Source: Vulcanimicrobium alpinum
Lineage (GTDB): Bacteria > Vulcanimicrobiota > Vulcanimicrobiia > Vulcanimicrobiales > Vulcanimicrobiaceae
Reading direction: 5' to 3'
Assembly: GCF_027923555.1 (NCBI RefSeq)
Contig: NZ_AP025523.1
Coordinates: 1,716,484-1,740,483 of the forward strand
Length of the DNA stretch: 24,000 nucleotides
Every line of letters begins with the position of its first letter. The first letter of the stretch is position 1. Shown here piece by piece: positions 10,238 to 22,610 of this stretch. Below the pieces are notes generated by a model that saw nothing but the letters and a program-made list of their open reading frames with translations, ran no database searches and was not told where the DNA came from. The translations under genes and the position numbers were made by a program.

Positions 10238-10871
10238 CTAGCCGAGCTTCCCGGTATAGCCTTCCATGAGGCCCCATGCGGTGTCGCCGAACTCTTTCTT
10301 CCAGCGCGCGTAGTAGTCGGCGAGCTTTGCCTTCATCGCGGCGCGATCGGCGGCGGCGACCTCGTTCACGGTCATCCCTTGGCTCTTGAGCTTCACGACG
10401 AGAGAGTCATTGAGCTTTTGAATGTCGGAGCGCTGACGCTCGGCGACCTTGACGGCGTTACGCGAGACGACGTCTTGCAAGTTCGTCGGGATTGCCTTCC
10501 ACCAGTCGCCGTTGGCGAGCAGCCAGTACCCGCCCCACATGTGGGAGCTCAGGCTGAGGTACTTCTGCACTTCGAAGAAGCGCGCGAACTCGATGTTCGC
10601 GAGCGGGTTTTCCTGACCATCGACGACGTGCGTCTGCAGCGACGTATAGAGCTCGCTGAAGTTCATCGCGACGGGCGCGGCGCCGAGCGACTTGAAGAGG
10701 TCCAGGGCGAAGCGGCTGTTCGGCGTGCGGATCTTCATCCCGGAGAGGTCGGCGAGATTGTGCACGGGTTTCCCGCCGGAGGTGATCTGGCGCATCCCGT
10801 TCTCCCAGATCTTTTCGAATGGGTGGATGTCTTTCTTCGAGATCTCGTCGCGGACGTAGGCGCCCCCCCCG
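10238..10871 (-). pseudogene. dctP: TRAP-transporter solute-binding protein (DctP family), C-terminal fragment, cut off by the IS3-family insertion
   Basis: Translation reads ...GGGAYVRDEISKKDIHPFEKIWENGMRQITSGGKPVHNLADLSGMKIRTPNSRFALDLFKSLGAAPVAMNFSELYTSLQTHVVDGQENPLANI...WGGYWLLAN..., typical of DctP. The reading frame runs straight into the IS terminus at 10872 with no start codon of its own, apart from an internal Met. Confidence 0.8.
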
Positions 10872-11013
10872 TGTCAAGATAGAGTGGTACCGGTAGCATA
10901 GGGAGTTTTTTGTACAACGTTCGTCGCAGCAGCAGAGCTGTGGATAACGGGGATACTGTGGAAAACATCCGGAACGATGCAAAGCACGCGGGGGCGAGAA
11001 AGTCCTGCAACAG

Positions 11014-11433
11014 ATGCAGTCCTCGAACGGAACCGTTTCAACGGAAATCAAGGCAACCAGTTCACCCCAAAAACCTCAGCGACGTCGGTTCTCCGCCGCC
11101 GAGAAGCTGCGCATCGTGCGCGAGGCTGATGCGCGTCCAGCCGGCACGATCGGAGCGTTTCTCCGGCGCGAAGGTATTTACTCATCGCAGCTCTATGCCT
11201 GGCGAAGGCAGCGCGATCAAGGCGACCTCGATCCAGGTGCGGTGCGCCAACGTGCAAAAGCCAAAATGCAAGCCGACGAGGTTGCGCAGCGGCTCAAAGA
11301 ACTCGAGCGGGAAAACCGGAAACTCCGTCGCCAGTTGGCGCGCGCCGAGCTCATAAACGATATCCAAAAAAAATTTGCGGGGCTCCTGGGCGTCGATCTG
11401 GAGAGCCCCGAGACGAACGAGAACGCAGAATGA
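11014..11433 (+). CDS. IS3-family transposase OrfA (HTH DNA-binding plus coiled-coil)
   Basis: RRRFSAAEKLRIVREADARPAGTIGAFLRREGIYSSQLYAWRRQ is a typical IS3 OrfA helix-turn-helix. It is followed by a leucine-zipper-like region, LKELERENRKLRRQLARAEL. Confidence 0.85.
   Translation: MQSSNGTVSTEIKATSSPQKPQRRRFSAAEKLRIVREADARPAGTIGAFLRREGIYSSQLYAWRRQRDQGDLDPGAVRQRAKAKMQADEVAQRLKELERENRKLRRQLARAELINDIQKKFAGLLGVDLESPETNENAE
11367..11373 (+). other. Programmed -1 ribosomal frameshift slippery heptamer A_AAA_AAA for the OrfAB fusion transposase
   Basis: An A8 run lies at 11366-11373. In the orfA frame the codons are caa aaa aaa ttt, so A-AAA-AAA is in X-XXY-YYZ phase. I translated the -1 frame from 11373 (ICGAPGRRSGEPRDERERRMSAAL...) and found no stop before the orfB ATG at 11430. 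Confidence 0.65.
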
Positions 11434-12434
11434 GTGCGGCGCTGGAACTTGCCCACGAGATTCCGCAGCGCGCGTTGTGCACTGCAGCGGGCATCAGCCG
11501 CTCGACGCTGCGGCGCCGCCTAAACGGCACGCCGGAACGACTTCCGTCCGTGATCTCGCGCCGGCGCTCGAGAAGAGCACTGAGCGAACACGAGCAAGCT
11601 GAGGTGCTCGCGGTGCTGCATGGCGAGCGGTTTGCCGATCGCGCGCCGGCGACGATCCACGCGACCTTGCTGGACGAAGGTATCTACCTGTGCTCGGTGA
11701 GCACGATGTACCGCCTGCTGCGAGCAAACGCGGAGGTGCGCGAACGTCGCCGTATTGCACGTCATCCGGAGTACCGTAAGCCCGAACTGGTGGCCACCGG
11801 TCCGCGTCAAGTTTTCTCGTGGGATATCACGAAGCTGCGCGGCCCGCACCCGGGTGAGTGGTTCTCGCTGCTGGTGATGCTCGACATCTTCAGCCGGTTT
11901 GTCGTCGGCTGGATGCTCGTGCATCGGGCCAACGCCGAACTCGCACGGCACTTCATCGCGCAGACGCTGGAACGTGAAGGCATCCAGCCCGGGCACGCGA
12001 TCGTTCACGCCGATCGCGGCGCGGAGATGACGGCGCAACCCGTGTGCGCCCTGATGGACAAGCTCGGCGTCGTACGTTCGCACAGCCGTCCGCACGTTAG
12101 CGACGATAACCCCTTCTCGGAGTCCCAGTTCCGCACGCTGAAGTACCATCCCGAATTCCCCGATCGATTTGGGTCGTTTGAGCACGGGCACGATTTCGTT
12201 GGTGAGTTCATGACCTGGTACAACAACGAGCACCGGCACTCCGGAATCGCGATGCTGACGCCGGCAATGGTGCATCACGGCCAGGCGGACCGCGTGCTCG
12301 CCGCCAGACACGACGTGATGCTCGCGGCTTACCGCGCCAAACCGGAACGATTCATCGGCGGATCGCCAAAGCGGATCGTGTTACCGCCCGCGGTGTGGAT
12401 AAATCCGCCCGCTCACGACGGGGTCGCCGTGTAG
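11430..12434 (+). CDS. IS3-family transposase OrfB (rve integrase-core, DDE)
   Basis: The DDE candidates lie in SWDITKL, VHADRGAEM and SRPHVSDDNPFSESQFRTLKY. The WYNNEHRHSGI motif is typical of IS3 OrfB. The ATG overlaps the orfA stop (ATGA), and the frame is -1 relative to orfA. Confidence 0.9.
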   Translation: MSAALELAHEIPQRALCTAAGISRSTLRRRLNGTPERLPSVISRRRSRRALSEHEQAEVLAVLHGERFADRAPATIHATLLDEGIYLCSVSTMYRLLRANAEVRERRRIARHPEYRKPELVATGPRQVFSWDITKLRGPHPGEWFSLLVMLDIFSRFVVGWMLVHRANAELARHFIAQTLEREGIQPGHAIVHADRGAEMTAQPVCALMDKLGVVRSHSRPHVSDDNPFSESQFRTLKYHPEFPDRFGSFEHGHDFVGEFMTWYNNEHRHSGIAMLTPAMVHHGQADRVLAARHDVMLAAYRAKPERFIGGSPKRIVLPPAVWINPPAHDGVAV

Positions 12435-12479
12435 GCGCTCACAAAAAGCAGATGACTAACAGGACCAAACACCTTGACA

Positions 12480-12878
12480 GATTCCGCCCAGCTTCCCGTC
12501 GAACGCGGCGTGCGCGATTTTCGGTTCGGCGAAGGCGAACCCGACGCTCTGAATCGCGGCGATCGGGACGACCGACTCCAGGATGCCGCCGTCGAGCGTC
12601 ATGATCTGCAGCGCGCCCGCGCGCAGCTGCTGGAGCATCTGGCTGTCGCCCCCGAGCTGATTCGGAAAGACCTGGACGTCGACTTTGCCGCCGGTCTCCT
12701 TGCGCACCGCGTCCCACAGGTCTTTCATCGCGACGCTCAGCGGATGATCGACCGGCTGATTCGTCCCGGCCTTTCCGCTGAAATCGGCGGCCTTGGCCGG
12801 CGAACGGACGATCCCGACGGAGGCGAACGCCGCCGCCGACGAGGCGAGAAAGACACCGCGTGATGACTTGCCGATCAT
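12480..12878 (-). pseudogene. dctP: TRAP-transporter solute-binding protein (DctP family), N-terminal fragment with signal peptide
   Basis: MIGKSSRGVFLASSAAAFASVGIVRSPAKA is signal-like. It is followed by GTNQPVDHPLSVAMKDLWDAVRKETGGKVDVQVFPNQLGGDSQMLQQLRAGALQIMTLDG...FAFAEPKIAHAAFDGKLGG, typical of DctP. After 12480 the frame reads IS-derived ICQGVWSC-stop. The N fragment (133 codons) plus the C fragment (~210 codons) is about full DctP length. Confidence 0.8.
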
Positions 12879-12946
12879 GCTGCCGTCTCCGTGAAAAGAT
12901 GAAGTTTGAGCCAGGAGTAGCGTGGCGCTGCGAAGATTTCCTCCGG

Positions 12947-14146
12947 ATGAGCGCGCAGCCGCCGCTCCACGGCGTTCGCGTCGTCGAGGTGGGCAACTTT
13001 ATGGCCGTCCCGTTCTGCGGAATGCAGCTCGCCGATCTCGGCGCCGACGTCGTCAAGGTCGAAAACCCGCGCGGCGGCGACCTCATGCGCGGGACGGGGC
13101 CGTTTCTCGACGGCGAGAGTTCGAACTTCGTGCGGCTGAATCGCAACAAGCGCAGCGTCGCGCTCGACCTGAAAGCCGACGCCGGCAAAACGATCTTCCG
13201 CCGTCTCGCCGACCGCGCCGACGTCGTGATCGAGAATCTGCGGCCGGGGACGATGGACTCGCTGGGCTTGGGCTATGCGTCGCTCTCGGCGGAACGGCCC
13301 GCGCTGATCTACCTCGCCGCGACAGGGTTCGGCCAGGAGGGTCCGTACGCGCAGATGGCGGGCCTCGACATCATCGCGCAGGGGATGTCGGGGCTGATGA
13401 GCATCACCGGCGAGCCCGATGCGCCGCCGGTCAAGGTCGGCGTTCCGATCGCGGACCTCACCTGCGCCCTCTACGCGACGATCGCCGTGCTGGCGGCGCT
13501 GCGTGCACGCGATCGCGACGGACGCGGTCAGTTCATCGACGTCTCGCTGCTCGAGTCGGCGGTCTCGTTCGCGGTCTGGGAGGCCGGGCGCTATTTCGCA
13601 ACCGGGACGGTCGCGTCGCCGACGGGCTCGGCGCATCAGGCAATCGCACCGTACCAAGCGGTGCGCGCGTCCGACGGCTGGTTCACCTTCGGTGCGAACT
13701 CGCAGGCGCACTGGCTCCGCTGCTGTGCGCTCTTCGGGCTCGAAGGGCTCGACGCCGACGAACGCTTTCACACGAACGAAGCACGCCTCGCGCATCGCGC
13801 GGAGCTGATCGCGGCGATCGAAGCGGTCACCACGACGCGCCCGGTCGAACACTGGACGCGCGTGCTGAGCAACGCCGGCATCCCGAGCGGTCCGATCCGG
13901 CGCTTCGATCGCGTCTTCAACGATCCGCACCTCGCGCAGCGCGGCTTCTTCACGGACGTCCCGCACGAGACGCTCGGGCTCGTGCGGCAAATCGGTTCGC
14001 CGATGCGGATGAGCGCAACGCCGGTGCGCATCGAACGTGCCGGCCCGCGGCTCGGCGTCGATACCGCCGCGGTGCTGCGGGAGCTTGGCGTCTCCGATGA
14101 CGACGCGGCCGCGCTGGCGCACAGCGGCGTCGCGGTGCCGGCGTGA
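12947..14146 (+). CDS. Family III CoA-transferase (CaiB/BaiF/Frc type)
   Basis: LHGVRVVEVGNFMAVPFCGMQLADLGADVVKVENPRGGD...NRNKRSVALDLK...DVVIENLRPGTMD...IYLAATGFGQEGPYAQMAGLDIIAQGMSGLMSITG matches the family III CoA-transferase N-terminal signature. I prefer the ATG at 12947 (MSAQPP...) to the track start at 12860. Confidence 0.85.
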   Translation: MSAQPPLHGVRVVEVGNFMAVPFCGMQLADLGADVVKVENPRGGDLMRGTGPFLDGESSNFVRLNRNKRSVALDLKADAGKTIFRRLADRADVVIENLRPGTMDSLGLGYASLSAERPALIYLAATGFGQEGPYAQMAGLDIIAQGMSGLMSITGEPDAPPVKVGVPIADLTCALYATIAVLAALRARDRDGRGQFIDVSLLESAVSFAVWEAGRYFATGTVASPTGSAHQAIAPYQAVRASDGWFTFGANSQAHWLRCCALFGLEGLDADERFHTNEARLAHRAELIAAIEAVTTTRPVEHWTRVLSNAGIPSGPIRRFDRVFNDPHLAQRGFFTDVPHETLGLVRQIGSPMRMSATPVRIERAGPRLGVDTAAVLRELGVSDDDAAALAHSGVAVPA

Positions 14147-14913
14147 TCCGGCTCGAACGCCGAACCTCGGCCATCGCGTGGGCGATCGTCGACCGACCGC
14201 AGGCGCGCAACGCGATGACGTTCGCGATGTGGGACGAGCTGCACGCGATCGCGCGCAGACTGCGCAACGACCGCGAACTGCGCGTGCTGGTGATCGCGGG
14301 CGCGGGCGGGAAGGCGTTCGTTTCAGGGACCGACATTGCTGGATTTCGCGGTTTCACCGCCGAGGACGGCGTCGCGTACGAAGCGCGGATGGACGCCGTC
14401 ATCGGTGCGGTGGAAGCGCTCGACGTTCCCGTGGTCGCCGCGGTGGCCGGCGCGTGCACGGGCGGCGGGGTCGCGCTCGCGGCGGCCTGCGACGTGCGCA
14501 TCGGCGCGAGCTCCGCGCGCGTCGGCGTCCCGATCGCGCGCACGCTCGGGAACGTGCTTTCGCTGGCCAACATCATGCGCGTCTCGGGCGTCGTCGGCAG
14601 CGACGCGGTGAAGGCGATGCTGGTCACCGCGGAGCTGCTCGATGCGGAGTCGGCGCTGCGGACCGGGTTCTTTCACGAACTCGTCGACGACGCGCAGCTC
14701 GACGCGCGGGCGGCGGAACGCGCCGAGACGATCGCGGCGCTCGCGCCGCTGACGTTGCGGCTGACGAAAGCGGGGATGCGCCGGCTGCGCGCCGCCGTAC
14801 CGATCCCCGACGACGGCGACCTGATCCGCGCCGCCTACGGCAGCGCGGATTTCGCCGAGGGCGTCGACGCCTTCATCGCTAAACGCGCGCCCCGCTGGAC
14901 CGGCTCAGGGTGA
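14143..14913 (+). CDS. Enoyl-CoA hydratase/isomerase (crotonase superfamily)
   Basis: DRPQARNAMTFAMWDELHAIARRL...RVLVIAGAGGKAFVSGTDI...PVVAAVAGACTGGGVALAAACDVRI...DFAEGVDAFIAKRAPRW are crotonase-fold motifs. The GTG start overlaps the CoA-transferase stop (GTGA). Confidence 0.88.
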   Translation: MIRLERRTSAIAWAIVDRPQARNAMTFAMWDELHAIARRLRNDRELRVLVIAGAGGKAFVSGTDIAGFRGFTAEDGVAYEARMDAVIGAVEALDVPVVAAVAGACTGGGVALAAACDVRIGASSARVGVPIARTLGNVLSLANIMRVSGVVGSDAVKAMLVTAELLDAESALRTGFFHELVDDAQLDARAAERAETIAALAPLTLRLTKAGMRRLRAAVPIPDDGDLIRAAYGSADFAEGVDAFIAKRAPRWTGSG

Positions 14914-16260
14914 GAGCGCGGCGAGTCGGGTGCGGGCGTCGTCGGCGTAGGCGGGGTGGAACGACGGGTTCAGCGCGAGCGCGCGCTGGAGTCGTGCGGC
15001 CGCCGTCGCACGGTCGCCGAAGTGCAGGGCGATGATTCCGGCGTGATAGTCGAGCAGCGCGTTCTCCGTCCGCAGACGTAACGCGCGTACGCTGCGCGCG
15101 CGCGCCTCGTCCCATTTGCCGTCCATCGCCGCCGCCCAGGCGAGTGTGTCGTCGGTGAAGATGTCGTCGCGAACGGCAAGGTCGGCGCGTGCGATTCGGT
15201 ATGCGTCGTCTGGGCGCTCGCGATGTTCCGCGTAGTAGATCGCCAGTAGACGGTCGGAGACGTGTTGGGCGTTCCCGATGCGCTCGACGGTACGGATCAG
15301 ATCGTCGGTTCGCTCTGCGGCCGCGGCGTCGCCGAGCGCGCGCTGCGCGTCCACCTCGTACCCTAGCACCTCGGGATACGGCACGACGGCCGCCGAGGCG
15401 TTGGCCGCGTCGAGGCACGCTTGCCAACGGTGCAGCGCACAGGTGACGCGCGCGAGCATCCGGTTGGCTTCGGAGTAGTCCGGAAAGATCGCGAGCGCAC
15501 GCTGTTCGTCCGCGACCGCCGCGTCGTTCTCGCCCGCTTCGAACGCCAGCTCCCCGCCGCGGAACCAGAACCAGGCGCGCTGCTGCGCAGGCTCGTCGTA
15601 GCGCGCGTCGACCGCGGCGGCCGTGCGCGCGAAACGTTCGCGCGCCCGTGCGAGGTGCCCGGTGAGCTCGTCGTAGCGTGCGAACAGCGTATCAAGGGCG
15701 ACGCGGACGTCATCCCCGCCGCGCCTTCCGTCGAGTCGGCGGAGCTGCGCGACGAGGCGCGCAGCATCGTCGTAGCGGCCGAGTTCGAGATCGATCGACG
15801 CCTCGCGGATCGCCATCGCGGGATCGCCGGGCTGCAGCCGCCCCAGGTGTTTGGTCACCGCGAGCGCGTCGCGGAACCGGTGCAGCGCGACGTATGCGGA
15901 CGCGAGCGCAACCTCCGCGTTCACGTTGCCGTAAGGCTGCGCACGCAGCGAACGCTGCGCGGCGTGCACGGCGCGGACGACGTCATCGATGTCTGCGCGC
16001 TCGCGATAGCGCTGCAGGTACTGTCCCGACAACTGCACGGGGCTGAGCATATCGCCCCGCAGGTGCTGGTCGGCAGCGCGCTCCCAGAACGCGATCGTCC
16101 GGTCGCGATCGCGGTAGTCGGCCGTCACCGGTGCGGGTCGCGGAAGCGCAGCGGCGCGCGCCGCGTTTTGGCGTGCATTGATGTACCACGGCCACGCGGC
16201 GACCGCTCCCAGAGCGATCGCCGCGATGGACCACATGAGCGCCGTCGAGTAACGGTTCAT
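14905..16260 (-). CDS. Membrane-anchored tetratricopeptide-repeat (TPR) protein
   Basis: 451 aa. An N-terminal hydrophobic anchor (ALMWSIAAIALGAVAAWPWYI) is followed by repeated ~34-aa helical units rich in A/L/Y/R (e.g. ALASAYVALHRFRDALAVTKHLGRLQPGDP, RALAIFPDYSEANRMLARV, ARLQRALALNPSFHPAY). It is the last gene of the DUF4331-like train. Confidence 0.65.
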   Translation of the reverse strand: MNRYSTALMWSIAAIALGAVAAWPWYINARQNAARAAALPRPAPVTADYRDRDRTIAFWERAADQHLRGDMLSPVQLSGQYLQRYRERADIDDVVRAVHAAQRSLRAQPYGNVNAEVALASAYVALHRFRDALAVTKHLGRLQPGDPAMAIREASIDLELGRYDDAARLVAQLRRLDGRRGGDDVRVALDTLFARYDELTGHLARARERFARTAAAVDARYDEPAQQRAWFWFRGGELAFEAGENDAAVADEQRALAIFPDYSEANRMLARVTCALHRWQACLDAANASAAVVPYPEVLGYEVDAQRALGDAAAAERTDDLIRTVERIGNAQHVSDRLLAIYYAEHRERPDDAYRIARADLAVRDDIFTDDTLAWAAAMDGKWDEARARSVRALRLRTENALLDYHAGIIALHFGDRATAAARLQRALALNPSFHPAYADDARTRLAALSP

Positions 16261-16280
16261 GCCGTGGTGCCTACCGCCCG

Positions 16281-16922
16281 TCAGTGCGGCGGGGAGAGGT
16301 ACGGGAAGGACGAGATCTTCGCCTGGCTCGGATTCTGACTAACGTTTTCCGCGCTCAGGCAGTTGTTCTCTTCGCCGTCGTCGGGTACGACCTTCAGCGC
16401 GCTCAGCGTCTTGCCGAACAGCGCGCCCAGCGAGATGTTCACGACGTCGTCGCCGATATCGCGGCCGCCGAACTTGCCGCCGGTCGCGCCGCCGGTCTCA
16501 ACGCCGAGATACGACGCGCTGTCGGTGGACGAGAGGTCGACGGTGTACTCGTTGGGATAGAGAATCGACGCCAGCGTCTTGCCGTAGTCGGTACCGAGTG
16601 CCGCATTCGGGGGACGCACGGTGTCTTCGAACTTGACGATCGCGTTGGGCAGCGGATCGGCCGCCGCGCCGGCGTACGGTTCGACGGCGTTCGTCGTCTT
16701 GTGGTCGACGAAGTTCTCGAAGACCTCTTTGATCGCCGGACGCGCGAGGAGTTCTATCTGCACGTACGACTGGGTCGATACGGTCGGGTTCGACGGGAGC
16801 GGCGACGCGAACGGGTTCGGTCCGGTGTTGAACGGCGGCGGCGTAACCGAACCGCCGTTGCACGCGGCGAGCGCGACGCAGAGGCTGCCCGCAGCGGCGA
16901 GTGTGGCGATGGACTTCTTCAT
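16281..16922 (-). CDS. Lipoprotein resembling the C-terminal half of DUF4331 proteins
   Basis: The lipobox is MKKSIATLAAAGSLCVALAAC|NGG. GGRDIGDDVVNISLGALFG and the C-terminal FPYLSPPH match what I recall as the conserved C-terminal motifs of DUF4331 (GGR-x-x-DDVVD..., FPYL-x-x-P). AGAGG lies 10 nt upstream of the ATG. Confidence 0.55.
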   Translation of the reverse strand: MKKSIATLAAAGSLCVALAACNGGSVTPPPFNTGPNPFASPLPSNPTVSTQSYVQIELLARPAIKEVFENFVDHKTTNAVEPYAGAAADPLPNAIVKFEDTVRPPNAALGTDYGKTLASILYPNEYTVDLSSTDSASYLGVETGGATGGKFGGRDIGDDVVNISLGALFGKTLSALKVVPDDGEENNCLSAENVSQNPSQAKISSFPYLSPPH

Positions 16923-16935
16923 CTGCTGTCGACCT

Positions 16936-17829
16936 CTATGATCCGGTCGACGAGTTCGTCGTCGCCCACACGTGGATGGTGGAACTGGAATATCCCGTCG
17001 TCAGCAGTGAACGCGGCACTTCGACCACGAACGCCAGGACGTTGAAGCCGCCGCCGAGATCCGTCAGCGTGTTCTGCGGTGCGTTCGTGCTGCAGGCGTA
17101 GTTGCCCAGCGCCGAACCGGCGCCCGCGGTCGTCCCCGCTTTGAAGCCGTTGAACGTCGGCTGCGCCGGGTTCGCGGACTTATCGTACGCCGGAGCAAAC
17201 GCGGCCGCGGCGCCGGCGTTGTCGCCGTTGAAAAGCGGTCCGCTCGCCGCCGGACCGGGATCGGTCTGCGAGGAGTGCGTGGCGTAGTTGCGGTCACCGA
17301 GGAACGAGAACAGGGCGAAGAGGTCGAGGTAGAACGGATCGGCGCGCGGACCGGCAAAGACCTTGATGCCGTTCGCGAGTTGCGTCGCCGTGTTGTAGTT
17401 GAACGTGCCGCCCGGGGTAACGAATGTGTTCGCTGTCCCCACTTCATTGGGCTTCGCCGGACCGTACAGCGTCAGCGTCTGCGAGGCGCCGGTCCCGTTC
17501 GCGCCGAACTGGATCACTTGATCTTCCGGCGACGCGCCGGTGCCGTGCGCGATCTTGAACTGCCACATCAGCGTGGGATCGAAGAATTTCGACGTCCCCA
17601 TCCCGGCGGGGATGAGCGGCGAAACGTCCATGACGAACACGACGTTGTTCGCGTTGGTCGGGGATGGAAACACGAAGACGTCGGTGATGTCGGCCGACGT
17701 ATTCGAACGGGTCGCGAGGTTGTAGGTGTCTTGGTGGTCGGAGCTCCGCACCGGGTGCGCGGTGTAGAGCACGGCGGCCGCGGCGACGGCCAGAACCGTC
17801 AACGAACCAAGAATCCGCCGGTTGATCAT
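16936..17829 (-). CDS. Secreted DUF4331-like protein (N-terminal/core half)
   Basis: I trimmed the ORF to the ATG at 17829, which has GAGAGGAA upstream. The signal peptide is MINRRILGSLTVLAVAAAAVLYTAHPVRS. It is followed by SDHQDT...ADITDVFVFPSP...VFAGPRADPFYLDL...GFNVLAFVVEVP. These match the SDH-x-D, D-x-TD-V-Y/F-x-F, AGPRDDPFF and NVLAIVLEVP-type motifs I associate with DUF4331. Confidence 0.6.
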   Translation of the reverse strand: MINRRILGSLTVLAVAAAAVLYTAHPVRSSDHQDTYNLATRSNTSADITDVFVFPSPTNANNVVFVMDVSPLIPAGMGTSKFFDPTLMWQFKIAHGTGASPEDQVIQFGANGTGASQTLTLYGPAKPNEVGTANTFVTPGGTFNYNTATQLANGIKVFAGPRADPFYLDLFALFSFLGDRNYATHSSQTDPGPAASGPLFNGDNAGAAAAFAPAYDKSANPAQPTFNGFKAGTTAGAGSALGNYACSTNAPQNTLTDLGGGFNVLAFVVEVPRSLLTTGYSSSTIHVWATTNSSTGS

Positions 17830-17938
17830 GCGGTGGTTCCTCTCGGGGCGATCAGGATGCAAATGAGACGTGATTCCCACGTAGTCTACATTAAAGACGA
17901 GTGTGAACTGAGGCCGGATTGCCCAGGATAGGGGTAAA

Positions 17939-18748
17939 TCACACCTTTTCCGCCGCCATCTGCTCGCTCAGCGGCTCCGCGACGCGTCGCGTCCCGACGA
18001 AAACGACGGCAAATACCGCGAGCAAGACCGCCACGAGTACCAGACTTACGACCAGATCGGAAACGGGGGAGCGCCAGCCGAGCTGTTGGGCGAGTTCGTA
18101 GGCGGCGACCGCGATCGCCAGTCCCGTGACCGAACCGATCCAGACGCGCATCACCGCGGGCAAACGGGCCGAACGGTGGGAAACCAAGCGATGGACGAGC
18201 ACGGAGTCGAGCGTGTCGGTGCAGATCATCCCGGCGGAGAACATCGCCCCGACCAGAAGCGCCCCGCCGATACCTGCGGTGCCGAAGACGAGAACGTATG
18301 CGGCGATCTGGCTGGAGGTCTCGAACCCGAACCCGAAAAGGAGTCCGATTGGCAACGCCAGCAACGCGCTCGAGCCCTCGCGCAGCCGCTTCGGCAAGAG
18401 GCGCGTTTTCGCGCCCGCTATGCGTTCGCCGCCGCGCACGAGCGTACGCACGTTCAGCGCGGCAATTGCAAGCAGGACGCCGATCGACACCCAGGTGCCG
18501 ATCGTTTCGATCAACGCTCCATGGGCGGCGAACCGCGCGCCGAGCAAACCGACAAGCACCGAGATCGAGAGGACCATGACGGAGTGTCCGCCCGCGAAGA
18601 GCGTGCCGACGAAGCGGCTTAAAAGCGGCGTCTTCACGTACGCGTTCCGCGTCACGTTGTCGATCGCCGCGATGTGATCGGGATCGGCGCCGTGGCGAAG
18701 CCCGAGCACGAACACCGTGAAAGCGCTGACTCCAAGCGCTCCGATCAT
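17939..18748 (-). CDS. Short (269 aa) HoxN/HupN/NixA-signature (NiCoT-like) nickel/cobalt permease
   Basis: I trimmed the ORF to the ATG at 18748; the upstream part of the track ORF is Arg-rich and overlaps the preceding gene. LRHGADPDHIAAIDNVTR matches the NiCoT TM-II signature H-A-x-D-A-D-H-I-x-A-I-D-N. FAGGHSVMVL matches G-H-S-x-V-V, and FGFGFETSSQIA matches L-G-F-D-T-A-T-E. About seven hydrophobic segments are visible by eye. The ATG overlaps the upstream stop (ATGA). Confidence 0.75.
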   Translation of the reverse strand: MIGALGVSAFTVFVLGLRHGADPDHIAAIDNVTRNAYVKTPLLSRFVGTLFAGGHSVMVLSISVLVGLLGARFAAHGALIETIGTWVSIGVLLAIAALNVRTLVRGGERIAGAKTRLLPKRLREGSSALLALPIGLLFGFGFETSSQIAAYVLVFGTAGIGGALLVGAMFSAGMICTDTLDSVLVHRLVSHRSARLPAVMRVWIGSVTGLAIAVAAYELAQQLGWRSPVSDLVVSLVLVAVLLAVFAVVFVGTRRVAEPLSEQMAAEKV

Positions 18749-20322
18749 GCCGATGCCTGCGCGGCAACCGGATGACGATGCCACGCGAAGCCGTAACCGA
18801 CGGCGGCGGCGAGAACCAATGCCGCGATCGCCGGAACCGGAGCGCCTACTTGCGGTCCGAGTCCCTGACCGATCATGACCGCGCCGACGGCAGCGATCAC
18901 GAACGCCGTCACCAGCGGCGCGAAGCGCGCCACCGCATCGAAGCGCGGACGACTCACGAGCCACGCGGCGCTTCGCACGACCGCGATCCCCAGCACGGTG
19001 AGCACGGCAGCGAGTCCGATGCTGAACGCGACGATCAGCGCGAGACCGTAGGCGACCTGATGCAGTGAAATTGCGGCCAGCAGCACGACCAGCGCTGCCG
19101 GGCACGGTGCGACATTTCCGCTTGCTGCCGCGATCGCTGCACTCCGGAACGTCAGCGGAGCCGTGCCGGGGATCGCGTGCGCGCGCGCGTGCGCGAGTTC
19201 GTCGAGATCCTCGTGACGGTGCGCCGGATCGCCGTGATGGTGGTGATCCGCATCTGGCGCATGCACATGTTCGTGCGCGTGAGGATGCGCGTGCGGGTGC
19301 GCGTGCGGATGTTCGTGAGCAAACGGCAAGCGCCGGCGGATCTCGCGCGCGAGCGCCCGCGCGCCAAGGACGGCGATGAAAACTCCTGAACCCAGTGTGA
19401 TCCACGAGTAGATTTGCTCGGGCACGATCCACTGCGTCGCGAAGAGCACCAGCACACCGAGCGCGAGCACGCCGGCCGTATGCGCGGCGGTGAGCGCCGT
19501 CGCGAGCACGAACGCCTGTCGGGCCGTCGCCCGCGCACCGACGAGGGAGACGGCCAGCAGCGTTTTCCCGTGGCCCGGCTCGAGCGCATGCAGGGCACCC
19601 AAAGCGATCGCCAAGAGCAAGGCGCCCACAACCACGAACGGATCTCCCGCACCCCGTGCGAGGACGTCGGACAGCGCGTTCGAGCGGGCCAGCGGCGCCG
19701 TGGACGTCGGCGTCGCGTCATCCTGACGACCGGAGATCGCGGCGAGCGTTCCGTCGGCGGCCAGGGTCGCGGTCACCGCGATCTCGGCGCGCGGAGAACC
19801 TAAGAGCGCGCTCGGATAGGAACGGAGTTCTCCGGTCGGTTCCTGCGCATCGCCGAGCACGACGTCACGCCATCCCAGCCGCCCTTCTTCCGTCGCGTCG
19901 CGGAACGTCAGCCGATGCGAACCCGCCGCCACCGCACCGTGGTACGACATCGTGGAATACAGCGTCGGCAATCCGCCTGCGCCCGCTCGCTGTTCGACCG
20001 TCACGCGCTCGGGGCGGAGCGCGACGGGGCGTCCGTCGGCTTCAAGCCTGAGGTCCGGGACGATCGCGGCGGCGTGCCGCTCGGCCCACAACTGGAGGGC
20101 CGCGTGTGTGGGCGCCCCGTGCTGATCGAGCAAGCGGTCGAGCGCGAACGTCGGGATCTCGGCTTCGTCGAGGACGTACTTCACGGTGACGGCGCCGGCT
20201 TTCGCCGTGATGCGCGTAAGATGGTTGACGGTGAAATTCCCCAGCGGGTGTGCCGACGCCGCGCCCGCACAAACGAACACGGCAGCGACGGCGATCGCGG
20301 CGACGCGAAGGAAACGACGCAT
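18745..20322 (-). CDS. Fusion of a ~200-aa periplasmic domain to a NicO/RcnA-like nickel/cobalt permease with a histidine-rich cytoplasmic loop
   Basis: I trimmed the ORF to the ATG at 20322, which has GAGGA 5 nt upstream. The signal peptide is MRRFLRVAAIAVAAVFVCAGAASA|HPLGNFTVNH. After the periplasmic domain comes the NicO signature LHALEPGHGKT, then TM segments. The loop (residues 335-382, nt 19177-19320) is HEHPHAHPHAHPHAHEHVHAPDADHHHHGDPAHRHEDLDELAHARAH, with 18 His. Confidence 0.75.
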   Translation of the reverse strand: MRRFLRVAAIAVAAVFVCAGAASAHPLGNFTVNHLTRITAKAGAVTVKYVLDEAEIPTFALDRLLDQHGAPTHAALQLWAERHAAAIVPDLRLEADGRPVALRPERVTVEQRAGAGGLPTLYSTMSYHGAVAAGSHRLTFRDATEEGRLGWRDVVLGDAQEPTGELRSYPSALLGSPRAEIAVTATLAADGTLAAISGRQDDATPTSTAPLARSNALSDVLARGAGDPFVVVGALLLAIALGALHALEPGHGKTLLAVSLVGARATARQAFVLATALTAAHTAGVLALGVLVLFATQWIVPEQIYSWITLGSGVFIAVLGARALAREIRRRLPFAHEHPHAHPHAHPHAHEHVHAPDADHHHHGDPAHRHEDLDELAHARAHAIPGTAPLTFRSAAIAAASGNVAPCPAALVVLLAAISLHQVAYGLALIVAFSIGLAAVLTVLGIAVVRSAAWLVSRPRFDAVARFAPLVTAFVIAAVGAVMIGQGLGPQVGAPVPAIAALVLAAAVGYGFAWHRHPVAAQASA

Positions 20323-20369
20323 GCTGATCCTCACGACGAACTGCGCTCTACCCCTTTCAACGGTCGTTC

Positions 20370-22610
20370 TCACGTGCCGGATTGAGCCGCGTGCGCGAGC
20401 GCGGCCTGGCCCAGCGCGAGGCCGCCGTCGTTCGGCGGCACGTCGCGGTTGAGCCACAGGCGATCGCCGAATGCCTCGACGAGCGCGCTGGTGAGGAGCG
20501 CGTTCTGAAAGACGCCGCCGGATGCCACCACCCGCCGGGCGTCGAGCGCCTCCGCGAGATCGACCACGGCGGCCGCGACCGCGCCGTGAAACGCGCGCGC
20601 GATCGCGCCGGGGTCGCGGCCCGCGAGCCGGTCAGCGACGATCGCGCGCAGGACCGGCTCCCCGTCGAAGGTTCCTCCTCGCAGCGCGAACGCATAGGCG
20701 GGGACGGCCGGGCTGCGGCGCGCGAGGTGCTCCAGCCACATCGCCGCCTGACCTTCGAACGTCTGCTCGCGAGTGAAGCCGCACAGCGCCGCGACCGCGT
20801 CGAACAGCCGTCCGATCGAACTCGTCGAGTACGCGCGCAGGCCGCTTCGCGCGACGGCCCGCGCCTGAGCGAAGCGAGGCGGAAAGGCGAACGGCGCCTG
20901 GTCGAACGCGATGTCGTCTGCGATTCCGGCGAGCGCGCCGGCCGCCGCCTGCACCGGATAACGCGCCGCGGCGTCGCCGCCCGGCAGCGTCATCGCGCGC
21001 AGATGCGTGACGCGGGCGAGCCCGCTGCGCAGTGAGCCCGCGAAGACCTCGCCGCCCCAGATCGTCCCGTCGTCGCCGTAACCGGTGCCGTCAAAGGCGA
21101 AGCCGACGACGTCCTCGTCCCACGCTGCGCGCTCCGCGAGGACGCTGGCGATGTGCGCGCGATGATGCTGAATCGCCACCGCTCTCCCGCCGAGTGCGCG
21201 CGCGTACTCGGCCGCGTAGTACTCGGGATGCAGATCGTGTGCGACCGTCAGCCCGCTCCGTTCGACGCCGTACATCGCGCACAGATCGTCGATCGTCGCG
21301 GCAAATGCGGCGCGGGTCGGCGCGTGGTCGAGATCGCCGATGTGCTGGCTCACGAAGGCTTGTCCGCCGACAATCAGCGCGATCGCGTTCTTGAGATCGC
21401 CGCCGACGGCGAGGATCGGCGTCGCGTCCGGAAACGTCGCCACCGCGCGCGGTGCGTACCCGCGCGCACGGCGCAGGACGACCGGGCCCGCCGCACCGGC
21501 GCGCACGATCGAGTCGTCGATCCGGCGCGCGATCGGCCGCTCGCCGATCAGGAACGCATCGGCGATTCCAGCCAGTGCCGTGCGCGCGTCGGCGTTGCGG
21601 TACGCGATCGGCTCGCTCGAGCGGTTCGCACTCGTCATCACGAGGGCGCGCGGCGCGCCGGCCGCGAAGAGCAGATGGTGCAGCGGCGCGTACGGCAGCA
21701 TCACGCCGAGCTCGTCGTTGTCGGGTGCGACGCCGGCGAGCCGTTCGCGCATCGGCGCCAGCACGATCGGCCGTTCGATCGCGCGCAGCAGCGTTTCGGC
21801 GCTGGCGTCGAGGATCACGAGCTCGCGCGCCGCATCGAGATCGCGCGCCATGATGGCAAACGGCCGCTCCTTGCGGAACTTCCGCTCGCGCAGCGCGCAC
21901 ACCGCTCCCGCGTCGCGCGCGTCGCAGCCCAAGTGATAGCCTCCGATCCCCTTCACGGCGACGATCGCTCCGTCGCGCAACAACGCCGCGGCGGCGTCGA
22001 CCGGATCGTCGGCGGCGACGCGTCCGTCGGCGAGTTCGAGGCGATACCGCGGCCCGCAGGCGGTGCACGCCGTCGGCTGAGCATGGAAGCGGCGGTCGCC
22101 GGGATCGTCGTATTCGCGCCGGCACGCCTCGCACATCGGCCAGCTTCGCATCGTCGTGCGCGGGCGGTCGTACGGCAGCGAGAGCACGATGCTGTAGCGC
22201 GGTCCGCAGTCCGTGCAATTGACGTACGGATACCCGTGGCGGCGGTCGGCGGGATCGGCGAGATCGCGCAGGCACGCTGCGCAGATCGGCAGATCGGGCG
22301 AGACGCGCGCCGTCGGCCGCGCACGCATCGCGCTCGCGCGGATCTCGAACGTCGCCAGCCCTTGCGGCGCCGCGGCACTGCTCGCGAACGAGACGATCCG
22401 CGCTGCCGGCGGCGGCGCCGCCTGCAGCGCAGCCAGAAACGCGTCGAGTAGGTCAGGCGGTCCTTCCGCGCGCAAGCGCACGCCGCCGTCGTCGTTGAGC
22501 ACCCAGCCGGCGATACCGTGCGCCTGCGCGGCGCGAAACACGAACGGCCGGAAACCGACGCCCTGGACGACTCCGGTGATGCACACGTCGACGGCGCTGC
22601 GCGCGGCCAA
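20370..22610 (-). CDS. hypF: [NiFe]-hydrogenase maturation carbamoyltransferase HypF
   Basis: All HypF modules are present. The acylphosphatase domain reads ITGVVQGVGFRPFVFRAA. The two zinc-finger pairs read CAACLRDLADPADRRHGYPYVNCTDCGPRYS and CEACRREYDDPGDRRFHAQPTACTACGPRY. A YrdC-like domain (AVKGIGGYHLGCDA) and a Kae1/peptidase-M22-like C-terminus follow. I trimmed the Arg-rich N-terminal extension to the TTG at 22610, 5 nt after the upstream stop, giving 746 aa. Confidence 0.92.
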   Translation of the reverse strand: MAARSAVDVCITGVVQGVGFRPFVFRAAQAHGIAGWVLNDDGGVRLRAEGPPDLLDAFLAALQAAPPPAARIVSFASSAAAPQGLATFEIRASAMRARPTARVSPDLPICAACLRDLADPADRRHGYPYVNCTDCGPRYSIVLSLPYDRPRTTMRSWPMCEACRREYDDPGDRRFHAQPTACTACGPRYRLELADGRVAADDPVDAAAALLRDGAIVAVKGIGGYHLGCDARDAGAVCALRERKFRKERPFAIMARDLDAARELVILDASAETLLRAIERPIVLAPMRERLAGVAPDNDELGVMLPYAPLHHLLFAAGAPRALVMTSANRSSEPIAYRNADARTALAGIADAFLIGERPIARRIDDSIVRAGAAGPVVLRRARGYAPRAVATFPDATPILAVGGDLKNAIALIVGGQAFVSQHIGDLDHAPTRAAFAATIDDLCAMYGVERSGLTVAHDLHPEYYAAEYARALGGRAVAIQHHRAHIASVLAERAAWDEDVVGFAFDGTGYGDDGTIWGGEVFAGSLRSGLARVTHLRAMTLPGGDAAARYPVQAAAGALAGIADDIAFDQAPFAFPPRFAQARAVARSGLRAYSTSSIGRLFDAVAALCGFTREQTFEGQAAMWLEHLARRSPAVPAYAFALRGGTFDGEPVLRAIVADRLAGRDPGAIARAFHGAVAAAVVDLAEALDARRVVASGGVFQNALLTSALVEAFGDRLWLNRDVPPNDGGLALGQAALAHAAQSGT

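What the first reader, a model, noticed from the sequence alone, without database searches (positions are those of the whole stretch)
14905..17829. Secreted DUF4331-like protein, separate lipoprotein resembling the DUF4331 C-terminal half, and a membrane-anchored TPR protein as one operon next to the Ni permeases
Seen in sequence:
- Three co-directional genes are separated by 13 and 20 nt.
- The first has a Sec signal and the N-terminal/core motifs I associate with DUF4331 (SDHQD, DITDVFVF, AGPRADPFYLDL, NVLAFVVEVP).
- The second has its own lipobox (LAAC) and the C-terminal motifs (GGRDIGDDVVNISL, FPYLSPPH).
- So what is often one polypeptide seems to be delivered here as two separately exported proteins, one soluble and one lipid-anchored. 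A TM-anchored TPR scaffold follows.
- A 109-nt AT-richer gap (17830-17938) separates this operon from the NiCoT-like gene.

Established knowledge: DUF4331 has no assigned function as far as I know.

Inference: given the position between Ni permeases/hypF and the conserved His/Asp-rich motifs, this could be a periplasmic metal-capture or envelope module of unknown mechanism.
Basis: partly seen in the sequence, partly recalled or inferred. Interest (0 to 1): 0.7.

Follow-up and report, generated by a model that had tools for sequence, protein, structure and literature searches.

The report
Split periplasmic DUF4331 metal-handling gene cluster
An uncharacterised exported protein (DUF4331) is made here as two separately exported pieces, one soluble and one lipid-anchored. 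These sit in a conserved five-gene cluster with two nickel-type membrane transporters and a helical-repeat (TPR) protein, which points to a new kind of periplasmic metal-delivery system.

Summary
On the minus strand, A (16936-17829), B (16281-16922) and C (14905-16260) are separated by 13 and 20 nt. A matches the N-terminal part of Pfam DUF4331 (best stretch profile 122-237) and B matches positions 250-421. Together they are colinear with single-chain homologues. B's extra 52 residues are a lipoprotein signal plus a Pro-rich tether.

The organism is Vulcanimicrobium alpinum (Eremiobacterota). The split is conserved in 67-76 related loci, so it is not a pseudogene.

The real unit is larger: promoter-like motif, N2 (RcnA-like permease with a periplasmic domain), N1 (NicO permease), A, B, C. 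hypF is not part of it.

Related DUF4331 + TPR + NicO/RcnA-type or HupE/UreJ permease clusters occur in Nostoc, Streptomyces and Proteobacteria. In some Eremiobacterota-type contigs N1 and DUF4331 are one polypeptide.

Every DUF4331 N-terminus examined is predicted to begin NH2-X-X-His, an ATCUN-type Ni(II)/Cu(II) motif. Every partner permease is predicted to begin with His1.

Best reading (inferred, about 0.5): A and B reassemble into a membrane-tethered periplasmic Ni(II) (possibly Cu) binding protein serving the permeases. The direction of transport and the metal are untested. No paper was found and no solved structure matches.

The parts
20360..20384 (-). Promoter-like motif CAATCC-N16-CGTT, 38-62 nt upstream of the N2 start. 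It overlaps the hypF stop codon.
   Evidence: Three matches in the window against 0.17 expected. The same motif lies upstream of 37 of 66 N2 orthologues and of first-in-cluster fused DUF4331 genes.
18745..20322 (-). N2: 525-aa permease. It has a signal peptide (residues 1-24, ...ASA|H), a roughly 200-aa periplasmic domain starting at His25 (HPLGNFTVNH), and an RcnA-like membrane domain (HALEPGHGK, APCPAA) with a His-rich loop.
   Evidence: Pfam NicO 40.7 bits. NCBIfam PRK10019 nickel/cobalt efflux transporter 122.7 bits, below its cut-off of 195. AxA|HPLGNFTxNH is invariant in orthologues. Orthologues in Nostoc (31% identity, 3e-69) and Streptomyces (28%, 7e-32).
17939..18748 (-). N1: 269-aa NicO-family permease with the NiCoT-type signature RHGADPDHIAAIDN. 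Its start overlaps the N2 stop (ATGA).
   Evidence: Pfam NicO 68.9 bits. TIGR00802 72.8 bits, far below its cut-off of 333. 62% identical to the N-terminal half of the N1::DUF4331 fusion protein P0504. The overlap is shown.
17897..17921 (-). Second copy of the CAATCC-N16-CGT motif, inside the 109-nt N1-A gap and 68-92 nt upstream of the A start.
   Evidence: The same motif sits upstream of A in 11 loci of the window's clade.
16936..17829 (-). A: the N-terminal, beta-rich half of DUF4331, predicted to be soluble in the periplasm. The signal peptide is residues 1-29 (17743-17829). The predicted mature N-terminus is Ser30-Asp31-His32 (17734-17742).
   Evidence: PF14224, best stretch profile 122-237. 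100% identical to WPS_17790 of Vulcanimicrobium alpinum. S30, D31, H32 and D34 are invariant in 77 sequences. (S/A)DHx(D/E) preceded by (V/A)-x-(S/G/A) occurs in 316 of 384 homologues.
16281..16922 (-). B: the C-terminal, mostly helical half of DUF4331, made as a lipoprotein. The signal peptide plus lipobox Cys21 is 16860-16922. The Pro-rich tether is residues 22-52 (16767-16859). The homologous domain starts at Tyr53 (YVQIELLARP).
   Evidence: PF14224 profile 250-421. Colinear with fused proteins. Lipobox in at least 117 of 120 homologues, the +2 residue is never Asp, and the median tether is 29 aa. In the AF2 model the first structured element of B is a strand at chimera residues 329-335.
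14905..16260 (-). C: a TPR protein with an N-terminal signal or anchor. It is a specific family that accompanies DUF4331.
   Evidence: TPR_19/TPR_2 hits. 43% identical (2e-98) to the TPR gene next to DUF4331 in Nostoc and 28% (2e-15) to the one in Streptomyces. It is present after B in nearly all loci. Its orthologues carry signal peptides or N-in anchors.

Best explanation
Shown:
- Window 14905-20384 (minus strand) is one conserved cluster: promoter-like motif, N2, N1, a second promoter-like motif, A, B, C.
- A and B are the two halves of a DUF4331 protein produced by a gene fission conserved across Eremiobacterota.
- B has gained its own lipoprotein signal peptide and a roughly 30-residue Pro-rich tether.

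Inferred:
1. After export, signal peptidase I leaves A with a free NH2-Ser-Asp-His end. This is an ATCUN-type site that binds Ni(II) or Cu(II).
2. B is lipidated at Cys21. Its first beta-strand (YVQIELL) and helical domain pack onto A's beta-sandwich and rebuild the DUF4331 fold. The result is a membrane-tethered, two-chain periplasmic metal-binding protein.
3. The fission may allow tethering without blocking the metal-binding N-terminus, because B supplies a second N-terminus for the lipid anchor.
4. The complex exchanges metal with the NicO-family permeases: N2, whose periplasmic domain is predicted to start at His1, and N1, which carries the NiCoT HX4DH signature.
5. The periplasmic TPR protein C acts as a docking or assembly factor.
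6. Ni(II) uptake is the most likely function. Neither the direction of transport nor the metal has been demonstrated.
7. Expression probably depends on a dedicated ECF-type sigma factor.
For: - Split and colinearity.
- Conservation of the split, the lipobox and the tight A-B spacing.
- AF2 model of the A+B chimera has pTM 0.80 and B starts with a strand.
- The order N2-N1-A-B-C is conserved down to 39% identity of A.
- N1::DUF4331 single-chain proteins occur in five 90%-identity clusters, inside an N2 / fusion / TPR cluster.
- In other phyla DUF4331 sits next to a TPR protein and a Ni-type permease. These are Nostoc (N2 orthologue), Streptomyces ('nickel transporter' = N2 orthologue), and Pseudoalteromonas, Comamonadaceae and Marinobacter (HupE/UreJ). 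In Rhizobium only DUF4331 and HupE/UreJ are adjacent..
- NH2-X-X-His is general among those examined: SDH in 316 of 384 relatives, A|SSHREAP in 5 of 5 canonical exported forms, and (M)S-x-H in 4 of 4 signal-less forms.
- Partner permeases all read AxA|His1.
- The host is diderm and has a group 1h [NiFe]-hydrogenase, so it has both a periplasm and a nickel demand: PMC9758169.
- Dedicated promoter motif, plus an ECF sigma/anti-sigma pair next to related clusters.
- Established knowledge (from memory): ATCUN sites bind Cu(II)/Ni(II). Coordination through the N-terminal amine is typical of Ni proteins such as RcnR, HypA and NiSOD. HupE/UreJ and NiCoT are nickel permeases.
Against: - No metal-binding, transport or expression data exist for any DUF4331 protein (0 papers).
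- Signal-peptidase cleavage sites were inferred from the -3/-1 rule only. No dedicated predictor or N-terminal sequencing was used.
- The A-B interface comes from a linked-chimera AF2 model driven by fused homologues, not from a two-chain prediction. Coordinates and PAE were not available.
- N2's closest named family is an efflux pump (RcnA), and it has the same His-rich loop. Export is therefore a real alternative.
- ATCUN sites and N-terminal His sites are at least as typical of Cu(II) as of Ni(II).
- N1 and N2 both score far below the curated cut-offs of their families.
- Some fused DUF4331+TPR pairs have no permease nearby.
- DUF4331 has many invariant Asp/Glu/Arg residues and a Gly-rich loop, which could mark an enzyme active site.
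Confidence: 0.5

Rival explanations
1. Export or resistance. N2 is an RcnA-type Ni/Co exporter. DUF4331 (A+B) and the TPR protein are periplasmic accessories that receive, buffer or sense exported metal, much as RcnB does for RcnA. The cluster is switched on by an envelope-stress ECF sigma factor.
For: - N2 and its Nostoc orthologue hit only the 'nickel/cobalt efflux transporter' model PRK10019. Both carry RcnA motifs and a His-rich loop.
- ECF sigma/anti-sigma pairs flank related clusters.
- The conserved motif looks like an ECF-type promoter.
Against: - N1 carries the importer-type NiCoT signature and is translationally fused to DUF4331 in some lineages.
- In other phyla the partner is HupE/UreJ, which is known as an uptake permease.
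- A second NicO-type permease gene with NiCoT-like sequence follows C in a second lineage, and plug-like TonB-receptor sequence was seen downstream in 9 loci. These identifications were made by eye, not by a model search.
- N2 scores below the family cut-off and has an extra periplasmic domain that RcnA lacks.
Confidence: 0.22
2. Copper rather than nickel. The NH2-X-X-His end of A and the NH2-His1...His10 end of N2's periplasmic domain are Cu(II) sites, of the ATCUN type and the histidine-brace type seen in CopC/YcnI. The cluster would then acquire or detoxify periplasmic copper.
For: - The motifs themselves.
- Established chemistry (from memory): ATCUN and N-terminal His-brace sites have very high Cu(II) affinity.
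- YcnI and CopC/YcnJ offer a precedent for a periplasmic N-terminal-His protein working with a permease.
Against: - All the partner permeases belong to families whose characterised members carry Ni/Co (NicO/RcnA, NiCoT signature, HupE/UreJ).
- No CopC, CopD, multicopper oxidase or P-type ATPase gene is annotated in the eight plasmid contexts or among the Pfam-annotated genes of loci L081-L089. The 80 genome loci were screened only with the window's own proteins.
Confidence: 0.18
3. DUF4331 is a periplasmic enzyme or a non-metal envelope factor. The permeases would either supply its cofactor or carry an unrelated substrate, and the conserved N-terminus would be structural.
For: - Many invariant acidic and basic residues, plus an invariant Gly-rich loop (YLGVETGGATGxKFGGR), are reminiscent of active sites.
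- No structural or sequence relative of known function was found.
- Some DUF4331 genes stand alone or with TPR only.
Against: - It does not explain why His stays exactly at position 3 of the predicted mature chain in exported and signal-less forms alike.
- It does not explain the recurrent pairing with two different Ni-type permease families, or the N1 fusion.
Confidence: 0.08
4. A and B are the remains of a frameshifted or otherwise broken DUF4331 gene, or an assembly artefact.
For: In the window alone, two adjacent ORFs covering successive parts of one Pfam model is the typical signature of a frameshift.
Against: - The split is conserved in 67-76 loci from independent assemblies, with A identity falling to about 40%.
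- B has an added 52-residue lipoprotein signal and tether that fused proteins lack. Its lipobox is conserved in at least 117 of 120 homologues.
- Each gene has its own Shine-Dalgarno-like sequence.
Confidence: 0.01

Closest known systems
Single-chain DUF4331 (PF14224) clusters annotated in cultured bacteria, e.g. Nostoc punctiforme pNPUN01 NPUN_RS34965-34955 and Streptomyces anulatus OHA57_RS38715-38725
   Same: - Same three families in one operon: DUF4331, a specific TPR protein (43% and 28% identical to C), and an N2-type permease whose mature chain starts A|HPLGNF and which has a His-rich loop.
- The same predicted NH2-X-X-His start on DUF4331.
   Different: - In those clusters DUF4331 is one chain of 424-549 aa with no lipid anchor.
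- There is no N1 permease.
- None of these clusters has been studied experimentally.
HupE/UreJ and NiCoT (HoxN/NixA) secondary nickel permeases
   Same: - N1 has the NiCoT HX4DH-type signature.
- In Proteobacteria, HupE/UreJ proteins occupy N2's place in DUF4331 clusters.
- These permeases also have a signal peptide followed by His1.
   Different: - To my knowledge (from memory) the characterised permeases act alone, without a periplasmic partner.
- N1 is short (269 aa) and scores 72.8 bits against a cut-off of 333 for TIGR00802.
- N2 has an extra periplasmic domain of about 200 aa.
E. coli RcnA-RcnB (NicO-family Ni/Co exporter plus periplasmic accessory protein)
   Same: - N2's membrane domain carries RcnA's motifs and His-rich loop.
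- A periplasmic protein is encoded alongside the permease.
   Different: - DUF4331 and RcnB gave no shared family hit.
- N2 scores below the PRK10019 cut-off (122.7 against 195).
- The cluster also contains an importer-like N1 and a TPR protein.
- The direction of transport is unknown.
Periplasmic metallochaperone-plus-permease pairs that use an N-terminal His, such as YcnI/CopC-YcnJ, and proteins that bind Ni through the N-terminal amine (RcnR, HypA, the NiSOD Ni-hook); all cited from memory
   Same: A metal site created at the very N-terminus by removing the signal peptide or the initiator Met, with a permease partner encoded alongside.
   Different: - There is no sequence or fold relationship.
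- Here the motif is NH2-X-X-His on a roughly 430-residue beta-sandwich plus helical protein.
- That protein is split into two chains, one of them lipidated.

Membership tests
Pfam DUF4331 (PF14224) | Match above the gathering score (27 bits) | tested here: met
   A scores 82.7 bits and B scores 42.2 bits.
Pfam DUF4331 (PF14224) | One polypeptide spanning the whole 421-position model | tested here: not met
   A's best stretch covers profile 122-237 (a second stretch lies further towards the N-terminus). B covers 250-421. Fused relatives of 400-450 aa cover both parts.
Pfam DUF4331 (PF14224) | Conserved His at position 3 of the predicted mature chain (A|SSHREAP, A|SDH, or (M)S-x-H) | tested here: met
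   A reads VRS|SDHQD. S30, D31 and H32 are invariant in 77 sequences. The motif is present in 316 of 384 relatives and in 9 of 9 plasmid-borne members outside this subfamily, plus Nostoc SDH.
ATCUN (amino-terminal Cu/Ni) motif proteins | Free alpha-amino group at residue 1 of the mature protein | not testable with these tools
   The cleavage site was inferred from the -3/-1 rule and its conservation. It needs N-terminal sequencing or mass spectrometry.
ATCUN (amino-terminal Cu/Ni) motif proteins | His at position 3 and no Pro at position 2 | tested here: met
   Ser-Asp-His if cleavage occurs before S30.
ATCUN (amino-terminal Cu/Ni) motif proteins | Square-planar Cu(II)/Ni(II) binding | not testable with these tools
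   This requires spectroscopy or ICP-MS.
Bacterial lipoproteins (protein B) | Positively charged n-region, hydrophobic h-region, and lipobox [LVI][ASTVI][GAS]C | tested here: met
   MKKSIATLAAAGSLCVALAAC. The lipobox is present in at least 117 of 120 homologues.
Bacterial lipoproteins (protein B) | Lgt/LspA processing and membrane destination | not testable with these tools
   The +2 residue is Asn and is never Asp in the family. The sorting rules of Eremiobacterota are unknown.
NiCoT (HoxN/HupN/NixA, TIGR00802), protein N1 | HX4DH signature in a transmembrane helix | tested here: met
   RHGADPDHIAAIDN at residues 18-31.
NiCoT (HoxN/HupN/NixA, TIGR00802), protein N1 | Score above the curated cut-off and the eight-helix architecture | tested here: not met
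   72.8 bits against a cut-off of 333. The protein is 269 aa with about 6-7 hydrophobic segments.
RcnA-type NicO exporters (PRK10019), protein N2 | Score above the curated cut-off | tested here: not met
   122.7 bits against a cut-off of 195.
RcnA-type NicO exporters (PRK10019), protein N2 | HxLEPGHxK and PCP motifs and a His-rich loop | tested here: met
   LHALEPGHGKT, APCPAALVVLL and HEHPHAHPHAHPHAHEHVH...HHHH are read directly from the sequence. The comparison with E. coli RcnA is from memory.
TPR proteins (protein C) | TPR repeats detected by profile | tested here: met
   TPR_19 scores 25.5 bits against a cut-off of 25, with several sub-threshold TPR models. The Nostoc orthologue scores clearly (TPR_2, 56 bits).

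The most novel reading that the evidence does not exclude
DUF4331 is a previously unrecognised family of extracytoplasmic nickel (or copper) chaperones. Its metal site would be the free NH2-X-X-His end created by signal-peptide removal, and it would hand metal to the His1 end of a LysE-superfamily permease with help from a dedicated TPR protein.

In Eremiobacterota the gene was split so that the protein could be lipid-anchored through a second N-terminus while the metal-binding N-terminus stays free. The result is a two-chain, membrane-tethered chaperone held together by strand complementation and controlled by its own ECF sigma factor.
Probability: 0.25. Interest if true: 0.8.

Novelty: new variant of a known kind. 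Interest (0 to 1): 0.64.

Why it matters
- **Gap in transport biology.** Secondary nickel permeases (NiCoT, HupE/UreJ, NicO) are generally treated as stand-alone transporters. Here they are consistently paired, across at least four phyla, with an exported protein family of unknown function and a specific TPR protein.
- **A testable hypothesis for DUF4331.** The NH2-X-X-His hallmark gives this widespread family a concrete metal-binding hypothesis where none existed.
- **Ecological relevance.** The phylum depends on trace-gas [NiFe]-hydrogenases in oligotrophic soils. Nickel acquisition is plausibly limiting there.
- **Protein evolution.** The conserved fission is a clean natural example of a protein divided at a strand boundary, with one half turned into a lipoprotein. 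It bears on how proteins are tethered when their N-terminus must stay free.

Tried and rejected
**Searches that found nothing**
- Literature searches for 'DUF4331' and 'PF14224' returned no papers. 'COG2215' returned nothing useful.
- PDB by sequence, both single proteins and a 77-sequence profile: no relatives.
- Foldseek of the AF2 model against the PDB: best E = 0.18, so no fold assignment.
- Rfam on the whole window: no hits.
- Sigma-70 promoter and terminator scan: nothing above chance.

**Tools unavailable or results unusable**
The single-sequence run gave pLDDT 48.6 and is unusable.
- Clustering of flanking ORFs was noisy because high GC produces many spurious ORFs. Only a second NicO-type permease, a plug-like TonB-receptor sequence and a ferritin-like gene recurred.
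- A first attempt to build an N-half HMM from alignment A1 was mis-trimmed and was redone.

**Unresolved**
- On a crude NJ tree without support values, split and fused forms interleave. The number of fission events is therefore unresolved.

**Readings rejected**
- Frameshift or pseudogene: rejected on conservation and the added lipoprotein signal.
- Stop-codon read-through: rejected because B is in a different frame.
- A functional link to hypF: rejected because HypF is absent from the 80 related loci and the promoter motif lies downstream of it.

**Side question left open**
- I checked whether the motif matches the known SigK/RskA promoter consensus. The paper I read does not give the consensus, so the ECF group is unassigned.

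Full report
**1. What is in the window**

The three genes are on the minus strand. A is 16936-17829 (297 aa), B is 16281-16922 (213 aa) and C is 14905-16260 (451 aa). The spacers are 13 and 20 nt, and each gene is preceded by a GAGG-like ribosome-binding site. B is in a different frame from A, which excludes read-through.

A matches Pfam DUF4331 (PF14224) at 82.7 bits in two stretches, the best covering profile positions 122-237 of 421. B matches the same model at 42.2 bits over positions 250-421. C gives TPR hits.

A begins with a signal peptide. B begins MKKSIATLAAAGSLCVALAAC, a lipoprotein signal with Cys21. C has a single N-terminal hydrophobic segment.

The 109-nt gap between the upstream permease gene and A has 53% GC, against 67% for the window.

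**2. Organism**

Protein A is 100% identical to WPS_17790 of Vulcanimicrobium alpinum. This is the first cultured member of Eremiobacterota (WPS-2). The description paper reports a Gram-negative envelope with an outer membrane, and a group 1h [NiFe]-hydrogenase (PMC9758169). A periplasm, lipoprotein sorting and a cellular nickel demand all exist in this host.

**3. The split is a real and conserved gene fission**

- An exhaustive search with A found 685 relatives. They are a mixture of proteins of about 230-300 aa and proteins of 400-450 aa.
- An HMM of the B family hits the C-terminal part of 22 of the 150 best representatives.
- A+B concatenated aligns colinearly with these single-chain proteins. 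The break lies exactly between '...VWATT(N/S)' at the end of A and 'Y-x-Q-x-E-x-x-A-R-P' at B residue 53.
- B's first 52 residues are absent from the fused proteins. They comprise the lipoprotein signal plus the tether NGGSVTPPPFNTGPNPFASPLPSNPTVSTQS.
- A homologues of 291-308 aa and B homologues of 192-226 aa are found throughout Eremiobacterota metagenome-assembled genomes.
- In the 80 genome loci retrieved, 67-76 carry the split pair. The A-stop to B-start spacing has a median of 11 nt and a range of -4 to 16.
- The lipobox is present in at least 117 of 120 B homologues. The +2 residue is N, G or S and never D. The median tether is 29 residues.

A frameshift or assembly artefact is excluded.

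On a crude neighbour-joining tree, split and fused Eremiobacterota forms interleave. Whether there was one fission or several is unresolved.

**4. Structure**

I modelled A fused to B residues 22-213 with AlphaFold2, using 76 fused homologues as the alignment. The model has mean pLDDT 76.7 and pTM 0.80.
- A forms a beta-rich domain (strands 48-163 and 262-294).
- B starts with a beta-strand (chimera residues 329-335, YVQIELL) followed by helices.
- The N-terminal arm around SDH, an insert in A (181-219), the tether, and the invariant Gly-rich loop YLGVETGGATGGKFGGR are all low-confidence.

The fission point lies between two conserved strands, and pTM is high for a chain that is 19% disordered. 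This fits reassembly of one fold by strand complementation. It is still a linked-chain model guided by fused homologues, not an independent two-chain prediction.

**5. The real unit is a five-gene cluster**

Directly upstream on the same strand lie two permease genes.
- N1 (17939-18748, 269 aa) is a NicO-family protein carrying the NiCoT-type signature RHGADPDHIAAIDN.
- N2 (18745-20322, 525 aa) has an RcnA-like membrane domain with HALEPGHGK, APCPAA and a His-rich loop. This domain is preceded by a signal peptide and a periplasmic domain of about 200 aa.
- The N2 stop and the N1 start overlap (ATGA).

Searching the 80 related loci with the window's proteins shows the order N2-N1-A-B-C in one lineage. 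In a second lineage the order is N2-A-B-C followed by a more distant NicO-type permease. Both hold down to 39% identity of A. HypF was found in none of these loci, so its adjacency in V. alpinum is incidental.

**6. Rosetta-stone and cross-phylum evidence**

Five 90%-identity clusters of 675-705-aa proteins consist of an N1-type NicO domain, one hydrophobic segment, and a complete DUF4331.
- The NicO domain is 62% identical to N1.
- One such gene lies between an N2-like gene and a TPR gene.
- The junction retains a small-residue -3/-1 site before SDH, so the chain may still be cleaved there.

Outside the phylum the following contexts were found.
- Nostoc punctiforme plasmid pNPUN01 encodes fused DUF4331, then a TPR protein 43% identical to C (2e-98), then an N2 orthologue (31%, 3e-69).
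- Streptomyces anulatus encodes DUF4331, a TPR protein, a 'nickel transporter' that is an N2 orthologue, and a second DUF4331.
- Pseudoalteromonas encodes an ECF sigma factor, an anti-sigma factor, DUF4331, an Ig-like lipoprotein, a CDC27/TPR protein and HupE/UreJ.
- Comamonadaceae and Marinobacter encode DUF4331, a small lipoprotein, a protein of about 400 aa, and HupE/UreJ.
- Rhizobium encodes a short DUF4331 next to HupE/UreJ.

Some DUF4331+TPR pairs, and some short DUF4331 genes, lack a nearby permease.

The partner permease is thus drawn from two different families whose characterised members carry nickel or cobalt. This is the strongest argument that the module handles that kind of metal.

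**7. A family-wide N-terminal motif**

- In A and its relatives, (S/A)-D-H-x-(D/E) sits at about position 31 and is preceded by (V/A)-x-(S/G/A). This is a signal peptidase I site. The pattern is present in 316 of 384 N-terminally complete homologues.
- S30, D31, H32 and D34 are invariant in the 77-sequence alignment.
- Canonical exported DUF4331 proteins read ...A|SSHREAP (5 of 5 examined).
- Signal-less short forms start (M)S-x-H (4 of 4), which gives X-X-His after Met removal.

The predicted mature N-terminus is therefore always NH2-X-X-His, the definition of an ATCUN Cu(II)/Ni(II) site.

Every partner permease is predicted to mature to an N-terminal His. N2 orthologues read AxA|HPLGNFTxNH, which is invariant. 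The HupE/UreJ partners read A|HQ.., A|HK.. and A|HT...

These cleavage sites are inferred and have not been measured.

**8. Regulation (noticed while examining the 109-nt gap)**

A motif CAATCC-N16-CGT(T) occurs three times on the minus strand of the window, against 0.17 expected.
- One copy lies 38-62 nt upstream of N2 and overlaps the hypF stop codon.
- One copy lies in the N1-A gap.
- One copy lies inside a disrupted DctP gene.

In the related loci the motif precedes 37 of 66 N2 genes and 11 split-A genes of the window's clade. It also precedes the fused DUF4331 genes that lead their clusters. In total, 54 of 91 occurrences with a downstream ORF precede N2 or DUF4331.

Its layout resembles ECF-sigma promoters. 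ECF sigma plus anti-sigma genes flank related clusters. The pair is RskA-type in locus L089, and a second pair occurs in Pseudoalteromonas.

hypF lies outside the unit.

**9. Mechanism proposed**

Shown: the fission, its conservation, the added lipoprotein signal, the five-gene unit, the fusions, and the cross-phylum pairing.

Inferred:
1. A is released into the periplasm with a free Ser-Asp-His end that binds Ni(II) or possibly Cu(II).
2. B is lipidated and, through its first strand and helical domain, completes the DUF4331 fold. This tethers the complex to a membrane.
3. The complex exchanges metal with the His1-bearing periplasmic domain of N2 and/or with N1.
4. C is periplasmic, as judged from the signal peptides or N-in anchors of its orthologues. 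It would serve as a docking or assembly factor.

One possible reason for the fission is that lipidating the N-terminus of an intact DUF4331 would destroy the metal site. Splitting provides a second N-terminus for the anchor. In Proteobacteria a separate small lipoprotein follows DUF4331, which hints at a recurrent need for tethering.

Uptake is favoured by three points: the NiCoT signature of N1, the HupE/UreJ partners, and plug-like TonB-receptor sequence seen downstream in 9 loci. Export remains a serious rival because N2 resembles RcnA. Copper cannot be excluded on motif chemistry.

**10. Novelty and verdict**

No paper mentions DUF4331 and no structure is related. The general kind of system, a periplasmic metal-binding partner working with a secondary permease, is known. 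The protein family, its N-terminal motif, the TPR partner and the lipoprotein-generating fission have not been described.

I rate this a new variant of a known kind, with interest 0.64.

Noticed in passing
window 20360-20384, 17897-17921 and 10470-10494 (all minus strand); also loci L001-L088: A conserved motif CAATCC-N16-CGT(T) resembling an ECF-sigma promoter. It occurs 3 times in the window against 0.17 expected. It precedes 37 of 66 N2 genes, 11 split-A genes and several fused DUF4331 genes. The third window copy lies inside a DctP fragment and is unexplained.
   Followed up: partly
window 10238-12878: A TRAP-type DctP solute-binding gene is broken in two. The C-terminal part is 10238-10795 (minus strand, profile 118-286). 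The N-terminal part is 12456-12878 (minus strand, profile 3-96). An insertion element with an rve integrase (11430-12434, plus strand) lies between them.
   Followed up: partly
window 5227-9861: A TonB-dependent receptor (5227-7410, plus strand), a DDE transposase with DUF772 and DDE_Tnp_1 domains (7548-8693, minus strand), and an ArsP-type permease (8701-9861, minus strand). This is a second mobile element in the same 24 kb.
   Followed up: no
P0495, P0503, P0504, P0510, P0513; locus L081 8001-10028: Single ORFs encode an N1-type NicO permease, one hydrophobic segment, and a complete DUF4331 (675-705 aa). The junction keeps a signal-peptidase-like site before SDH, so the polyprotein might be cleaved after membrane insertion.
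   Followed up: partly
L039 2276-7810; L089 6001-12394; L088: In some Eremiobacterota a fused DUF4331 gene sits upstream of N2-N1. At the usual A-B position between N1 and the TPR gene, L039 holds only a B fragment and L089 has about 1.4 kb with no called gene. This suggests that a fused paralogue has replaced the split pair. In L088 the TPR gene itself is called as two pieces (287 + 158 aa).
   Followed up: no
L021, L024, L025, L027, L028 (downstream of C); L004/L005 16.2-19.9 kb; L041, L063, L066, L071: Extra paralogues are present. Some loci have a second, divergent split A-B pair directly after C. Others have a fused DUF4331 with its own C-like TPR gene a few kb away. The family is expanded within single genomes; Candidatus Eremiobacter antarcticus has at least three loci.
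   Followed up: no
L016 about 7.7 kb, L017, L020 (just upstream of N2); L014 12864-13367 and 8 other loci (downstream): In the Lustribacter lineage a secreted ferritin-like protein (Pfam Ferritin_2) with its own copy of the promoter motif precedes N2. Sequence resembling a TonB-dependent receptor plug, identified by eye only, follows the cluster in 9 loci.
   Followed up: partly
L094 7536-8054; L097 7508-7813; L098 7440-7685: In proteobacterial DUF4331 clusters a small lipoprotein follows the full-length DUF4331 gene. The lipoboxes are LAGC or LTAC and the proteins are 81-172 aa. They are unrelated in sequence to B. They may be a functional counterpart of the lipid anchor that B provides here.
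   Followed up: no
window 16936-17829, A residues about 181-250: A carries an Ala/Gly/Pro/Asn-rich insert relative to most fused homologues. AF2 models it with low confidence (pLDDT below 50 for residues 181-219). Its role is unknown.
   Followed up: no
window 14905-14913: The 3' end of C overlaps by 9 nt the 3' end of a convergent enoyl-CoA hydratase gene (14143-14913, plus strand). That gene follows a family III CoA-transferase (12860-14146, plus strand). No terminator-like structure was detected between the convergent genes.
   Followed up: no
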